64,000 nt of DNA from Escherichia coli O127:H6 str. E2348/69 (GCF_000026545.1 NC_011601.1); one strand, 5' to 3'; positions 13,401 through 17,429 are shown, counted from the stretch's first letter. Made by a program: numbers and translations. The notes: generated by a model from the sequence alone, not told the origin.

Positions 13401-13476
13401 GCCGATATAGCTCAGTTGGTAGAGCAGCGCATTCGTAATGCGAAGGTCGTAGGTTCGACTCCTATTATCGGCACCA
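13401..13476 (+). tRNA. thrW: tRNA-Thr (anticodon CGU)
   Basis: 76-nt cloverleaf GCCGATATAGCTCAGTTGGTAGAGCAGCGCATTCGTAATGCGAAGGTCGTAGGTTCGACTCCTATTATCGGCACCA; anticodon loop TTCGTAA; T-arm GGTTCGA. Confidence 0.95.
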
Positions 13477-13490
13477 TTTAAATCAATAAA

Positions 13491-13958
13491 TTACCTCACA
13501 TTTAAGTAAACCACGTTCACCTCTTGTGCCGTATTTGTGCCATTGCGACTTATAATCGCATCGATTTTGCTCGCGTGCTCGGTGAGATGCCCGGCTGAAA
13601 GGTGGGCGTATCTTTGAACCATTTCGAGAGTTTCCCATCCTCCCATCTCTTTAAGTGCAAGAAGAGAGACACCGGACTGAACCAGCCAGCTTGCCCAGGT
13701 ATGCCTCAGGTCATGGAAGCGGAAGTTGCTAATGCCTGCCCGCTTTAACGCTCCCTTCCATGCCTTGTTGCTGTCGGTTCTCATCTTCCTTACCGCTGCT
13801 GTTTTTGTTCCGTCGCTTCGGTAGGCAGGTCTGGTGTGGACAAATACCCATCTCTTATGGAGCCCCTGCTGTTTTCTTAATATCTGGCATGCGGTTTCGT
13901 TAAGAGGAACTCCGATCGCATTGCCAGCTTTTGTTTCATCAGGGTGCATCCATGCCAT
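13491..13958 (-). pseudogene. Tyrosine recombinase (phage-type integrase) C-terminal fragment, truncated next to the IS3-family element
   Basis: 155 aa ORF carrying the integrase catalytic region ('[19 protein letters not shown]...[10 protein letters not shown]'); abuts thrW 3' end; no N-terminal ~250 aa. Confidence 0.8.
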
Positions 13959-14072
13959 TTTCTTATCCAGATCGACCTGTGACCACTCAAGGTCTGTAAC
14001 TGTAGTGGCACACTGAATTTGGCCACCTGAACAGAGGTGATATGCTCACCTCAGAACAACACAGGTGCTCCA

Positions 14073-14375
14073 ATGAAAAAAAGAAATTTCAGCGCAGAGT
14101 TTAAACGCGAATCCGCTCAACTGGTTGTTGACCAGAACTACACGGTGGCAGATGCCGCCAAAGCTATGGATATCGGCCTTTTCACAATGACAAGATGGGT
14201 CAAACAACTGCGTGATGAGCGTCAGGGCAAAACACCAAAAGCCTCTCCGATAACACCAGAACAAATCGAAATACGTGAGCTGAGGAAAAAGCTACAACGC
14301 ATTGAAATGGAGAATGAAATATTAAAAAAGGCTACCGCGCTCTTGATGTCAGACTCCCTGAACAGTTCTCGATAA
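14073..14375 (+). CDS. IS3-family transposase OrfA (HTH), IS911 InsN-like
   Basis: '[49 protein letters not shown]...' with leucine-zipper-like C-terminus; slippery A-AAA-AAG near the 3' end. Confidence 0.85.
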
Positions 14376-14934
14376 TCGGGAAACTCAGAGCGCATTATCC
14401 TGTGGTCACACTCTGCCATGTGTTCGGGGTTCATCGCAGCAGCTACAGATACTGGAAAAACCGTCCTGAAAAACCAGACGGCAGACGGGCTGTATTACGC
14501 AGTCAGGTACTTGAGTTGCATAACATCAGCCATGGTTCTGCCGGGGCAAGAAGCATCGCCACAATGGCAACCCTGATAGGCTTCAGAATGGGGCGCTGGC
14601 TTGCCGGCAGGCTCATGAAAGAACTGGGACTGGTCAGTTCTTTCATGAGCCTGCGCACCGTTATAAACGAGGTGGTCGTGAACATGTCACTATCCCGAAT
14701 CACCTTGGGCGGCAGTTCGCAGTGACAGAGCCAAATCAGGTATGGTGCGGCGACGTGACGTACATCTGGACGGGGAAACGTTGGGCATACCTTGCCGTTG
14801 TTCTCGACCTGTTTGCAAGGAAACCGGTAGGTTGGGCAATGTCGTTCTCTCCAGACAGCAGACTGACCATCAAAGCGCTGAAAATGGCCTGGGAAATCCG
14901 CAGTAAACCAGCCGGGGTAATGTTCCACAGCGAT
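14330..14934 (+). pseudogene. IS3-family transposase OrfB, 5' part (frame-disrupted, then cut by the IS110-family insertion)
   Basis: ORFs 14402..14725 and 14722..14997 carry OrfB-like segments ('[45 protein letters not shown]') in two frames; similarity stops at ...TTCCACAGCGAT (14934). Confidence 0.7.
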
Positions 14935-15215
14935 AGTAATAATGCCGGTATCAGTTTTTATCATCACTCTGTTTGCTGTTTAACCAGACTGGTGTGATTA
15001 CTGATGCAGTGAAGACCTTCCCGCATCCTGACTCACACAGCGATCGACCCTTTGTGTCCTGCCCTGGACCTGTCGGTTGCCGGAAGCGCCTTCATGCGAG
15101 GCGTCTCCTCACCGATGCGCGTGACTCAAGAAGGGCCTGACGGTTTGTCTCGTTACTGTCCTGTCCGGGTTATCTGTCTGGAGATTCAACTCTGTTTCCT
15201 CACAGGAGCTCTGTT
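14935..15215 (+). ncRNA. Candidate bridge (guide) RNA locus in the IS110-family left arm
   Basis: Non-coding 5' arm contains CACAGCGAT (15036-15044), identical to the target flank immediately left of the element (14926-14934), and CCCTGGA (15062-15068), the reverse complement of the right junction TCCAGGG (16307-16313). Boundaries and structure not determined. Confidence 0.4.
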
Positions 15216-16292
15216 ATGGCAGGTAAAGTTACGGAAACCGCTGTTGTGGGTGGCGTGGATACACATAAAAATCTGCACGTTGCCGCTGTCGTAGATCAGA
15301 ACAATAAAGTTCTGGGGACCCAGTTTTTCTCCACAACACGGCAAGGTTACCGGCAGATGCTGGCATGGATGACTTCGTTTGGGGCATTAAAGCGAATTGG
15401 TGTTGAGTGTACAGGCACCTATGGATCAGGTCTGCTTCGCTATTTACAGAATGCCGGGTTAGACGTTCTTGAGGTGACTGCGCCAGATCGGATGGAGCGA
15501 CGCAAACGGGGTAAAAGTGACACGATTGATGCTGAATGTGCCGCTCACGCCGCATTCTCCGGAATAAGAACCGTCACACCCAAAACGCGCAATGGCATGA
15601 TTGAGTCTCTGCGGGTATTAAAAACTTGCCGAAAAACAGCAATATCAGCCCGCAGAGTCGCTCTCCAGATTATCCATTCCAATATTATCTCTGCCCCGGA
15701 TGAATTACGTGAACAGCTCAGAAATATGACGCGTATGCAGCTCATCAGGACTCTGGGATCCTGGCGGCCTGATGCCAGTGAATACCGCAATGTTACCAAC
15801 GTTTATCGTATTTCATTAAAGTCCCTTGCCCGACGCTATCTCGAGTTACATGACGAAATCGCTGATTTGGATGTCATGATTGCGGCAATTGTCGATGAGC
15901 TGGCGCCTGAACTGATTAAACGTAATGCTATTGGATACGAAAGCGCTTCGCAGTTGCTGATCACGGCAGGAGACAATCCCCAACGATTAAGATCAGAATC
16001 AGGTTTTGCGGCACTGTGTGGTGTCAGCCCTGTTCCCGTATCTTCAGGAAAAACGAATCGTTATCGACTTAACCGGGGTGGAGATCGTGCTGCAAATAGT
16101 GCACTTCACATCATTGCCATCGGACGTTTGCGAACTGACGATAAAACGAAGGAATATGTCGCCAGACGAGTAGCGGAAGGGCATACAAAAATGGAAGCAA
16201 TACGCTGCCTGAAGCGCTATATCTCACGCGAAGTTTATACATTACTGCGTAATCAAAACAGGCAGATCAACAGCATCCCGATAACGGCTTGA
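15216..16292 (+). CDS. IS110-family transposase/recombinase
   Basis: 358 aa; N-terminal '[15 protein letters not shown]...GVECTGTYG' (DEDD RuvC-like fold) and C-terminal '[38 protein letters not shown]' (Tnp domain with conserved Ser). Confidence 0.85.
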
Positions 16293-16308
16293 CTCTTAGA
16301 AGGGCGTC

Positions 16309-16617
16309 CAGGGAAGCCAGTATACAGGCCTGAAATATCAACAAATTCTCTGGCGTTACAGAATAAAGCAAAGTGTCAGTCGGCGGGGAAACTGCTGGGA
16401 TAATAGCCCAATGGAACGCTTCTTCCGCAGTCTGAAAACAGAATGGGTGCCAGCGAATGGTTACGTCGACAAGGACGAGGCCCGGCAGCAAATTAATGAT
16501 TACATATTGAACTACTACAACAGTGTCAGACCTCACCATTATAACGGTGGGTTGACTCCGGAAGAGTCCGAGAACAGGTACCATTTTTACTGTAAAACCG
16601 TGGCCAGTATTACTTGA
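16309..16617 (+). pseudogene. IS3-family transposase OrfB, 3' fragment
   Basis: Sequence resumes with an IS911-like orfB stretch; ORF 16411..16617 '[19 protein letters not shown]...[19 protein letters not shown]' is the integrase-core C-terminus. Confidence 0.75.
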
Positions 16618-16762
16618 CCACTACTGTTTGAAGATTGTTGTGCCGTATTTGTGACATACACATGACAACATCATGCATCAACTTTCTGTTTGTGCCATCA
16701 ACTATAGCTTAGTGAATGCGGTTAATGCTTGCTAAAACAGATAGTTATGATTGGTGCTACAG

Positions 16763-16808
16763 ATTCGTAATGCGAAGGTCGGAGGTTCGACTCCTATTAT
16801 CGGCACCA
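16763..16808 (+). repeat. Partial direct copy of the thrW 3' half (attR-like island boundary, pseudo-tRNA)
   Basis: ATTCGTAATGCGAAGGTCGGAGGTTCGACTCCTATTATCGGCACCA matches thrW positions 13431-13476 with one mismatch, and is followed by a similar TTAAATCAATAA flank. Confidence 0.85.
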
Positions 16809-17429
16809 CTTAAATCAATAAGTTACACATCATTAATACCTTCCTTATTTTTTGATTGGGACAGATTTGGGACCGATGGGTTCAGGATCGAATCTATTTA
16901 CCGTGCGTGTTCGGTAAGGTGATTAGGTGCGAGGTGAGCATATCGACGAACCATTTCGAGAGTTTCCCATCCGCTCATTTTTAAGTGCAAGCAGGGAAAC
17001 ACCGGACTAAACCTATCAGCTGTTCGAAAATGGCAAGCGGATTAATATGCCATGGCGGCTTTGAGCCGCACGCATGGGGTGTGGCAAGCCTGATGGATGT
17101 TGCTGTGCTTGTGGTGGCGTGTTTGCTGGTCTGGTTGTTGGTTAATCGCGAAAATCATTATGCCTGAGGAATACCACAGGACGTTCAGGTTTTGCATAAA
17201 AAAGCCCACCATTAAGGTGGGCAAAAGGAATGATTTATATTCTCTGAGAGAGACATTACATTTCTCCTTGCCACTTCTAACATAAAAATATGGAGAAATA
17301 ATGGAGCTTATATTAATTGGCGATTAGGTAATCATGTGGTTATACAAAACAATACAGTTCTTTACATTTGCCTTGTTTTATGAATACTCCTAAAGAGGTG
17401 TATAACATAATGGTACAAGCAGGGTAGAT

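What the first reader, a model, noticed from the sequence alone, without database searches (positions are those of the whole stretch)
13401..17010. thrW integration hotspot holds a decayed tandem island remnant
Right after thrW there is an integrase 3' fragment (13491..13958), then the nested IS pair, then a 46-bp copy of the thrW 3' half (16763..16808, 1 mismatch) with the same TTAAATCAATAA flank, then a second short degenerate integrase 3'-end remnant (~16905..17010, including CGAACCATTTCGAGAGTTTCCCATCC shared with 13610-13640). This suggests at least two successive integrations at thrW followed by deletion of cargo, leaving yagU as the right-hand backbone. No prophage or island cargo remains.
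Basis: seen in the sequence. Interest (0 to 1): 0.45.

Follow-up and report, generated by a model that had tools for sequence, protein, structure and literature searches.

The report
Two collapsed prophages at thrW

Summary
The window is EPEC E2348/69, and RefSeq already marks both integrase pieces as pseudogenes.

- **Proximal remnant (13431-16808).** This is a collapsed lambdoid element with an SfX/HK542-type integrase.
- **Distal remnant (16809-17167).** This is an older fossil: 213 bp of an SfII/P22-type integrase 3' end fused to the 3' end of a phage late-region gene. RefSeq calls that gene piece a hypothetical protein.
- **Order of events.** 81 genomes carry thrW-fossil-yagU with nothing in between, which is the state before the second integration.
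- **Less decayed relatives.** Seven non-E2348/69 genomes carry the same IS-B/P-arm junction. In the two examined in full, the proximal element is a 17-20 kb defective prophage.
- **The "nested IS pair" is a chimera.** It is the left 934 bp of one IS3-family element, then ISEc21, then the right 316 bp of a different IS3-family element. ISEc21 is known to target the DDE-coding motif of IS3-family transposase genes. Recombination between two ISEc21 copies most simply explains the loss of about 16.8 kb. A further 826 bp was lost next to the first IS.

This is a well-documented case of a known kind, of low to moderate interest.

The parts
13401..13476 (+). Functional thrW, tRNA-Thr(CGU). Its 3' 46 nt (13431-13476) is the att core at the left junction (attL) of the proximal element.
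   Evidence: ARAGORN; Rfam. The core is identical to the published 46-bp att core of SfI/SfII/SfV/SfX/P22 (PMC3636060).
13477..14000 (-). P' arm plus the 3' 44% of an SfX/HK542-type integrase gene (coding part 13491-14000, equal to Int residues 218-386). It is cut off by the left end of IS-A. It contains the candidate double arm-type site TTGTGCCGTATTTGTGCC at 13524-13541.
   Evidence: 97% aa identity to SfX, HK542, HK75 and mEpX2 Int; 98.8% nt to the HK542 attP/int region; protein alignment coordinates; motif (D4).
14001..14934 (+). Left 934 bp of IS-A, an IS911-like IS3-family element. It ends exactly at the ISEc21 target in the HSD|QG codons.
   Evidence: 99.1% to IS-A of the thrW element in 2015C-4136CT1 and SC477; about 90% to K-12 IS911A. 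The phage int sequence stops exactly at 14000.
14607..14654 (.). Perfect 20-nt inverted repeat with an 8-nt loop inside IS-A orfB. A clustered change (2-nt insertion plus 4 substitutions at 14639-14647) perfected a quasipalindrome. This gives a +2 frameshift.
   Evidence: the repeat finder I1; alignment with four other IS-A copies that lack the change.
14935..16308 (+). ISEc21, IS110 family, 1374 bp. The transposase gene is at 15216-16292. No target duplication.
   Evidence: RefSeq annotation; junctions read. The length matches the 1374-bp ISEc21 copy of E2348/69 used experimentally (PMC11187229).
16309..16624 (+). Right 316 bp of IS-B, a different IS3-family element that is only 69% identical to the right end of IS-A. 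It lacks the terminal A seen in other copies.
   Evidence: Identical to the IS-B right end in L017; differs at 98 of 316 positions from the IS-A right end.
16625..16762 (+). P arm at the right junction (attR) of the proximal SfX/HK75-type element. It holds the same double arm-type motif (TTGTGCCGTATTTGTGAC, 16638-16655).
   Evidence: Colinear with the HK75/HK542 attP P arm. The whole 16621-16980 segment is 95.3% identical to the tandem-prophage junction of SH21PTE31.
16763..16808 (+). thrW', the displaced original 3' part of thrW. It is the att core copy shared by the attR of the proximal element and the former attL of the distal fossil. One mismatch (G at 16782).
16809..17021 (-). P' arm plus a decayed 3' end of an SfII/SfV/P22-type integrase gene (about Int residues 320-387; one frameshift, one stop). 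Its arm-type motif is TTGGGACAGATTTGGGAC (16856-16873). The last 40 nt are closer to the SfX/HK type, so the stump is mosaic.
   Evidence: 93.6% to SfII over 16763-16980; translation; multiple alignment. Conserved at about 98% in B2 genomes such as CFT073.
17022..17167 (+). Frameshifted 3' fragment of a 97-aa lambdoid phage membrane-protein gene that lies after the side tail fibre gene. RefSeq annotates 17030-17167 as a hypothetical protein. The junction at 17021/17022 is an internal deletion of the distal prophage.
   Evidence: 84-85% nt to 46 lambdoid phage records; gene context; protein comparison.
17168..17268 (.). Spacer shared with the genomes that carry the distal fossil and with no K-12 counterpart. 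It has a terminator-like hairpin on the minus strand at 17204-17222. K-12 backbone homology (upstream of yagU) starts at 17269.

Best explanation
The segment from thrW to yagU is a fossil tandem array of two lambdoid prophages that used the same 46-bp att core in thrW.

**Step 1, inferred.** A phage with an SfII/SfV/P22-type integrase integrated at thrW. It then collapsed by an internal deletion that joined the integrase 3' end (now 16809-17021) to the 3' end of a late-region gene (17022-17167). Its far att copy was also lost. This fossil is old: it diverges between lineages as much as the backbone does, and it sits beside yagU in hundreds of genomes.

**Step 2, shown by comparison.** A lambdoid element with an SfX/HK542-type integrase later integrated into the intact thrW. 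The crossover presumably fell in the anticodon loop. The element's own copy of the thrW 3' part now completes the functional gene. The original 3' part, with the old fossil attached, was pushed 3.3 kb downstream and is now thrW'.

**Step 3, partly shown and partly inferred.** The element already carried two unrelated IS3-family insertion sequences: IS-A near xis/int, and IS-B 138 bp from the core in the P arm. [quoted passage not shown] It inserted into both IS elements in the same orientation. Homologous recombination between the two 1.37-kb ISEc21 copies then removed the roughly 16.8 kb between them, leaving IS-A-left | ISEc21 | IS-B-right. A separate 826-bp deletion next to the left end of IS-A removed the integrase 5' half.

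**Outcome.** What remains has no function beyond supplying the 3' part of thrW.
For: **Identity of the two stumps**
- The window is E2348/69, and the pieces are annotated as pseudogenes.
- Stump 1 is 97% aa and 98.8% nt identical to SfX/HK542-type Int, and it lies next to an attP that HK542's depositors annotated as thrW-like.
- Stump 2 is 93.6% nt identical to SfII; intact relatives are SfI/II/IV/V and P22-like Int.
- Both arms of element 1 are present and carry the same double motif. Stump 2 carries the variant motif found in SfII and ST64T.

**Order of events**
- A synthetic join of proA-thrW 5' to thrW'-fossil-yagU is contiguous at 98.2-98.7% in 81 genomes.
- The fossil is the right flank of other thrW elements in CFT073 and other strains.

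**Less decayed relatives**
- 2015C-4136CT1 and SC477 carry the same element at 17-20 kb. It has an intact Int, IS-A, cargo, early genes, and IS-B at the identical P-arm junction. Seven non-E2348/69 genomes share that junction.

**Chimera**
- Window 14001-14934 is 99.1% to IS-A left, and window 16304-16700 (the IS-B right end plus the adjoining P arm) is 99.7% to L017. The cross-comparisons give only 67-69%.
- ISEc21 occurs at the same site in complete IS-A copies.
- ISEc21 also occurs in IS-B in 101 genomes, including another locus of E2348/69 itself.
- Its target specificity and lack of target duplication were shown experimentally (PMC11187229).

**Loss rather than relocation**
- A sampled piece of the element's interior is absent from all three E2348/69 assemblies.

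**Recent, att-bounded acquisition**
- Against 2015C-4136CT1 there are 0 mismatches in 13221-13736 and in 16309-16781. The backbone on both sides shows 2.0-2.4% divergence, and the first mismatch on the right lies inside the core at 16782.

**Live precedent**
- SfI integrates at the attL of a resident SfX prophage and gives a tandem array at thrW (PMC3306764).
Against: - No genome examined has the proposed intermediate, with ISEc21 in both IS-A and IS-B of the thrW element. The two relatives read in full have neither insertion.
- The ISEc21 copies are nearly identical, so no crossover point can be mapped.
- No att copy marks the far end of the distal fossil. Its status as a whole former prophage rests on two short pieces.
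- The element shared with other lineages lacks late genes and has a disrupted xis. How it reached divergent backbones with att-exact boundaries is therefore unexplained. Homologous replacement with a crossover inside the core cannot be excluded.
- The arm-type sites are inferred from repeated motifs only.
Confidence: 0.8

Rival explanations
1. One element only. The second thrW copy and the second integrase stump arose by local duplication of the thrW-int junction, which then diverged.
For: The two copies are colinear and in register, 3330-3332 bp apart.
Against: Stump 2 is 93.6% identical to SfII but only 74% to stump 1. It carries a different arm-type motif. It exists alone next to a functional thrW in 81 genomes that lack stump 1.
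Confidence: 0.02
2. The interior was lost by IS3-family transposition chemistry or illegitimate recombination, and ISEc21 then inserted into an existing hybrid IS. Alternatively, the ISEc21 recombinase itself joined its end to the second target site in cis. Either way, RecA-dependent recombination between two ISEc21 copies was not involved.
For: None of the IS ends in the element family has a matching target duplication, so IS-adjacent rearrangements clearly happen here. The right end of IS-B lacks its terminal A. No two-ISEc21 intermediate was found.
Against: The switch from IS-A to IS-B falls exactly at the two ends of ISEc21. A prior IS-A/IS-B hybrid would need a crossover between sequences only 67-69% identical at exactly the ISEc21 target. 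Both IS-A::ISEc21 and IS-B::ISEc21 exist in nature, and the latter is in this very genome. In the published assays ISEc21 moves through a circular intermediate and needs the correct target flanks; one-ended deletion has not been reported there.
Confidence: 0.15
3. The proximal remnant was not acquired by integrase-mediated integration in the E2348/69 lineage. It was imported already decayed, together with flanking chromosome, by homologous recombination after transduction or conjugation.
For: The shared element lacks late genes and has a disrupted xis, so it cannot move as a phage on its own. The left boundary of near-identity is only located to 13221-13430.
Against: The right boundary of near-identity lies within the first 20 nt of the att core, next to the anticodon loop. 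That stretch is too short for efficient RecA crossover, but it is where Int would be expected to cut.
Confidence: 0.2

Closest known systems
Tandem SfX + SfI lysogens at thrW in Shigella flexneri (Sun et al. 2011, PMC3306764)
   Same: The same 46-bp att core in thrW downstream of proA, and the same two integrase lineages. The incoming phage integrates at the attL of the resident prophage and so lies proximal to the tRNA gene, with an att copy between the two.
   Different: Here the order is reversed: the SfX-type element is proximal and newer, and the SfI/II/V-type fossil is distal and older. Both prophages are reduced to stumps, no gtr serotype-conversion genes remain, and the far att copy of the distal element is gone.
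E. coli K-12 cryptic prophage CP4-6 with its thrW fragment (ptwF)
   Same: The same thrW hotspot. A 46-nt thrW 3' copy marks the far end. K-12 also keeps about 75 bp of an SfX/HK-type P' arm just beyond that copy.
   Different: CP4-6 is 34 kb and has a 466-aa IntF at its distal end. The window shares nothing with it except the core and an IS911-like sequence. K-12 has yagP-paoABCD between the thrW copy and yagU, and the window does not.
GI-thrW / PAI-thrW of ExPEC (ST131 restriction-modification island; Vat island of CFT073, 536 and APEC)
   Same: They occupy the same site, and in B2 strains they are bounded on the right by the same thrW'/integrase fossil next to yagU.
   Different: Those islands carry cargo: vat, or type I restriction-modification and AbiE genes. 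The CUVET20-PYO1 island also has an intF-like integrase pseudogene. The E2348/69 site holds only att arms, integrase stumps and IS sequence.
ISEc21 insertions in IS3-family transposase genes (Siddiquee et al. 2024, PMC11187229)
   Same: [quoted passage not shown]
   Different: In the window the two flanks belong to two different IS3-family elements. This copy therefore marks a deletion junction, not a simple insertion.

Membership tests
Integrase-mediated tandem prophage array at a tRNA gene | An intact tRNA gene at one end, and a direct repeat of its 3' part (the att core) at the element boundary | tested here: met
   thrW at 13401-13476. The 46-nt copy at 16763-16808 matches 45 of 46 positions. 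Two matches in the window against 0 expected.
Integrase-mediated tandem prophage array at a tRNA gene | An integrase gene, of a lineage known to use that tRNA, immediately beside each att copy | tested here: met
   Stump 1 is SfX/HK542 type. Stump 2 is SfII/P22 type. Use of thrW by these phages is documented in PMC3636060 and PMC3306764.
Integrase-mediated tandem prophage array at a tRNA gene | Both attP arms of an element are recoverable at its two ends | tested here: met
   Proximal element: the P' arm at 13477 onward and the P arm at 16625-16762 are colinear with the HK75/HK542 attP.
Integrase-mediated tandem prophage array at a tRNA gene | An unoccupied site exists in related genomes | tested here: met
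   81 genomes have thrW directly followed by the distal fossil and yagU.
Integrase-mediated tandem prophage array at a tRNA gene | A further att copy at the far end of the distal element | tested here: not met
   There is no third core-like sequence in the window, allowing up to 3 mismatches in 25 nt. It was presumably deleted.
K-12 CP4-6 prophage | Sequence homology to CP4-6 genes, including intF | tested here: not met
   blastn of 13300-17500 against K-12 260000-305000 finds only thrW and its fragment, an IS911-like sequence and the yagU upstream region.
Single IS3-family element with a nested ISEc21 insertion | The sequences left and right of ISEc21 belong to the same IS | tested here: not met
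   The left part is IS-A (99.1%). The right part is IS-B (16304-16700, which includes the P arm, is 99.7% to L017). The right ends of IS-A and IS-B differ at 98 of 316 positions.
ISEc21 (IS110 family, seekRNA-guided) | Insertion at the conserved IS3-family DDE (second D) coding motif without target duplication | tested here: met
   The junctions read ...AGCGAT|ISEc21|CAGGGAAGCC, within the HSD|QG codons, with no duplication. The target is described in PMC11187229.
ISEc21 (IS110 family, seekRNA-guided) | Activity of this copy: circle formation and a functional seekRNA | not testable with these tools
   Only sequence identity is available: 2 differences in 1374 nt from the E2348/69 copy at the hypF-norW locus, which is the copy the authors cloned.
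Tyrosine recombinase (functional integrase) | A complete arm-binding, core-binding and catalytic domain with all catalytic residues | tested here: not met
   Stump 1 starts at residue 218, just after the GLRRSN segment that by analogy with lambda Int holds the first catalytic Arg. Stump 2 is 68 codons with a frameshift and a stop.

The most novel reading that the evidence does not exclude
ISEc21 inserts by RNA guidance into a motif conserved across otherwise dissimilar IS3-family elements. It could thereby create long identical repeats inside ISs that could not otherwise recombine, and so act as a general driver of deletions between unlike ISs. In the strongest form of this reading, the ISEc21 recombinase itself catalyses the deletion between its own junction and a second target site in cis. 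The thrW chimera would then be a natural footprint of that process.
Probability: 0.12. Interest if true: 0.55.

Novelty: new member of a known kind. Interest (0 to 1): 0.25.

Why it matters
The case gives an unusually complete, step-by-step reconstruction of how a tRNA integration hotspot accumulates and erodes prophages. An empty site, intermediates and the end state are all available in public genomes.

It corrects three annotations:
- the two IS3-family pseudogenes flanking ISEc21 are parts of two different elements;
- the "hypothetical protein" WP_000146238.1 is a phage gene fragment;
- a 138-bp attR arm is unannotated.

The one point of wider interest is the ISEc21-bridged chimera. It suggests that a site-specific IS110-family element can seed homology between unrelated IS3-family elements and so promote genome reduction. 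Otherwise the locus has no likely function beyond supplying the 3' part of thrW.

Tried and rejected
No homology beyond the att core and an IS911-like sequence.
- **Third att copy for the distal fossil.** None found.
- **Rfam scan of 13200-17600.** Only the tRNA.
- **Mapping a crossover inside ISEc21 from polymorphisms.** The copies differ at only 2-5 positions, and the window's two differences are private to it, so nothing could be mapped.
- **IS-A in the window as an independent insertion into int.** I first thought this likely because of 0.64% divergence. I dropped it once the differences proved to be one clustered templated change plus two substitutions. It is not strictly excluded.
- **Relocation of the missing interior elsewhere in E2348/69.** The PACE-transporter flank of IS-A is absent from all three assemblies. 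Only that one piece of the interior was tested.
- **Target-site duplications for IS-A and IS-B.** None match in the window or in 2015C-4136CT1, so they cannot be used to order events.
- **The E2348/69 genome paper.** It is not held in the library, so I could not check whether this remnant was described there.
- **Promoter and terminator scan of 16600-17450.** Nothing above the shuffle expectation.
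Full report
**Source and existing annotation.** The 4.2-kb stretch 13300-17500 is 100% identical to E. coli O127:H6 EPEC strain E2348/69. Only the three E2348/69 assemblies hold at least 80% of it. RefSeq already annotates the following, in order:
- thrW;
- a partial integrase pseudogene;
- an IS3-family pseudogene;
- the ISEc21 transposase gene;
- an IS3 orfB fragment;
- a second partial integrase pseudogene with an internal stop;
- a 45-aa hypothetical protein;
- yagU.

**Check of the observation.** ARAGORN and Rfam find one tRNA, thrW, at 13401-13476. 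Its 3' 46 nt recur at 16763-16808 with one mismatch. With the flank the repeat is 64 nt at 95% identity. A 25-nt core pattern occurs twice in the window against zero in 100 shuffles. The 46 nt are the published att core of phages SfI, SfII, SfV, SfX and P22 (PMC3636060).

The first integrase piece runs to 14000, not 13958. It equals residues 218-386 of a 386-aa integrase. The second piece spans 16809-17021, about 68 codons with a frameshift and a stop. The two align at 74% over 266 nt, with a pairwise E of 3e-40.

**What the two integrase pieces are.**
- Piece 1 is 97% identical in protein to the integrases of Shigella phage SfX and coliphages HK542, HK446, mEpX2, mEp043 and HK75. It is 98.8% identical in DNA to the HK542 int/attP region, whose depositors annotated the attP as thrW-like.
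- Piece 2 is 93.6% identical to SfII over 218 nt. An intact relative in strain SH21PTE31 is 98-99.5% identical in protein to the SfII, SfI, SfIV and SfV integrases, and 90% to those of P22-like phages.
- The last 40 nt of piece 2 resemble the SfX/HK type more closely, so that integrase gene was itself mosaic.

The second copy is therefore not a diverged duplicate of the first.

**The att arms.** Window 16621-17021 is colinear with the whole attP region of HK75 and HK542: P arm, core, then P' arm with the integrase 3' end.

The P arm carries TTGTGCCGTATTTGTGAC. The same double motif, TTGTGCCGTATTTGTGCC, sits in the P' arm beside piece 1 at 13524 (D4). Beside piece 2 the corresponding position reads TTGGGACAGATTTGGGAC, as in SfII and ST64T. 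I read these as arm-type integrase binding sites, by analogy with lambda and P22 attP. That reading is an inference.

On it, the junction at thrW' is a hybrid: the P arm belongs to the SfX-type element and the P' arm to the SfII-type element. A tandem array predicts exactly this. SH21PTE31 shows the same junction alive, with a prophage on the left and an intact SfII-type integrase on the right.

**Which integration came first.** I joined proA-thrW 5' (13200-13430) to thrW'-fossil-yagU upstream (16763-17429) and searched for the join. It is contiguous at 98.2-98.7% in 81 genomes. In strain Rb-50, for example, a functional thrW is directly followed by the integrase stump, the small ORF and yagU.

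The stump with its neighbours is present at about 98% in 559 genomes. In CFT073 it is the right flank of the vat island, and in CUVET20-PYO1 the right flank of a restriction-modification/AbiE island. Its divergence between E2348/69 and other lineages equals that of the surrounding backbone.

The distal fossil is therefore old, and the proximal element was added later at the intact thrW. This matches the laboratory result that SfI integrates at the attL of a resident SfX prophage (PMC3306764).

**The distal fossil has a second piece.** Window 17021-17148 matches 46 lambdoid phage records at 84-85%. The match lies in the 3' end of a 97-aa membrane-protein gene located after the side tail fibre gene. 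The RefSeq hypothetical protein at 17030-17167 is a frameshifted fragment of that gene.

So 17021/17022 is an internal deletion junction of the old prophage. No att copy follows it. K-12 homology resumes only at 17269, and K-12's yagP-paoABCD is absent from this interval.

**Less decayed versions of the proximal element.** The junction of IS-B with the P arm occurs in seven non-E2348/69 genomes. I read two of them in full: 2015C-4136CT1 and SC477. There the element is 17-20 kb and contains, in order:
- an intact integrase;
- IS-A, inserted in xis;
- a PACE transporter gene and a LysR regulator gene;
- exo, bet and gam;
- a replication protein P fragment;
- an inverse autotransporter gene;
- nin-region genes;
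- IS-B;
- the P arm and thrW'.

Against 2015C-4136CT1 the window has no mismatch in 13221-13736 or in 16309-16781. The backbone on both sides differs by 2.0-2.4%, and the first mismatch on the right lies inside the core at 16782. The element is thus recent and bounded by the att cores in divergent chromosomes. That points to integrase-mediated acquisition. How a defective element travelled between lineages is unexplained.

**The IS pair is a chimera.**
- Window 14001-14934 is 99.1% identical to the left part of IS-A. Window 16304-16700, which is the right end of IS-B plus the adjoining P arm, is 99.7% identical to the same stretch of 2015C-4136CT1.
- The right end of IS-A differs from window 16309-16624 at 98 of 316 positions. 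The left end of IS-B is only 67% identical to the window's left part.
- The switch falls exactly at the two ends of ISEc21 (14935-16308, 1374 bp), within the HSD|QG codons, with no target duplication.
[quoted passage not shown] They cloned a copy from E2348/69 (PMC11187229).
- Complete IS-A::ISEc21 composites exist. The IS-B::ISEc21 junction is found at 97-100% in 101 genomes, including the hypF-norW locus of E2348/69 itself.

The simplest route to the chimera is ISEc21 insertion into both ISs of the thrW element, followed by homologous recombination between the two copies. That would delete about 16.8 kb (2015C-4136CT1 locus L017, positions 14229-31077). This step is inferred. No intermediate was seen, and the ISEc21 copies are too similar to map a crossover. 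A sampled interior segment is absent from all E2348/69 assemblies, so the DNA was lost rather than moved.

**The left junction.** In the relatives IS-A lies 176 bp upstream of an intact int. In the window its left end abuts int codon 217/218. Apart from one clustered change, the window's IS-A differs from the relatives' copies at only two positions in 934 nt. It is therefore the same copy, and the junction is best read as an 826-bp deletion adjacent to the IS-A left end. None of the IS ends in this element family has a matching target duplication.

**Rivals.**
- Local duplication is refuted, as shown above.
- Deletion by IS3 or ISEc21 enzymes rather than by RecA cannot be excluded, but it fits the exact junctions less well.
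- Import of the already decayed element by homologous recombination is possible, but the att-exact right boundary argues against it.

**Comparison with what is known, and verdict.** thrW is a recognised integration hotspot (PMC7545054; PMC3203889). Tandem SfX/SfI lysogeny at thrW is documented, and ISEc21 targeting is documented. This locus is a new, well-resolved instance of known processes.

Interest is low to moderate. The ISEc21-bridged chimera is the only part that might be of wider interest.

Noticed in passing
window 14607-14654: A perfect 20-nt inverted repeat inside IS-A orfB. It arose from a clustered 2-nt insertion plus 4 substitutions at 14639-14647, which perfected a quasipalindrome. 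Four other IS-A copies lack the change. It looks like a template-switch mutation and causes a +2 frameshift.
   Followed up: yes
window 17030-17167: RefSeq hypothetical protein WP_000146238.1 is the frameshifted C-terminal fragment of a 97-aa lambdoid phage membrane protein encoded after the side tail fibre gene. It is not a gene in its own right.
   Followed up: yes
L013 4998-5216 (ST131 strain 5506) and L014 4047-4265 (FDAARGOS_1280): In strains carrying GI-thrW, the functional thrW is also followed by a 204-219 bp integrase 3' stump. It is SfX-like in ST131 and SfII-like/mosaic in FDAARGOS_1280. Both are truncated at ...CAGCTTGCC, within 4-5 bp of where the window's distal stump ends (...CAGCT). 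Why independent stumps end at almost the same codon is unexplained.
   Followed up: partly
L003 37210-37330 (K-12 MG1655, right of the thrW fragment ptwF): K-12 keeps about 75 bp of an SfX/HK-type P' arm, including the TGTGCCGTATTTGTGCC motif, just beyond the thrW fragment that ends CP4-6. CP4-6 therefore also sits in front of an older phage fossil.
   Followed up: partly
L015 1732-1777 (Rb-50), L014 4001-4046 (FDAARGOS_1280); window 16782: The functional thrW of some strains has a compensated T-stem variant (T->G together with A->C). The window's thrW' has only the G, which would leave a G-A mismatch, and the same position is canonical in 2015C-4136CT1 and CUVET20-PYO1. The displaced copy may be a recombinant or a mutated form.
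   Followed up: partly
window 16618-16626; L017 31382-31390: The right end of IS-B reads ...CCACTAC followed by TGTTTG. It lacks the terminal A present in other copies (...CCACTACA), and HK75 reads CTACATGTTTG at the same place. The junction may have formed through CTAC microhomology rather than by clean transposition. It is identical in all element-bearing genomes examined.
   Followed up: partly
L024 1-3040 (SC477): A third element, with a 425-aa tyrosine recombinase and a phage baseplate gene, lies between thrW and the SfX-type element. Triple arrays therefore occur at this site.
   Followed up: no
L020 1934-4175 (O111:H- 11128): The reverse nesting also occurs: an IS-B-like IS3-family element is inserted inside an IS110-family transposase gene.
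   Followed up: no
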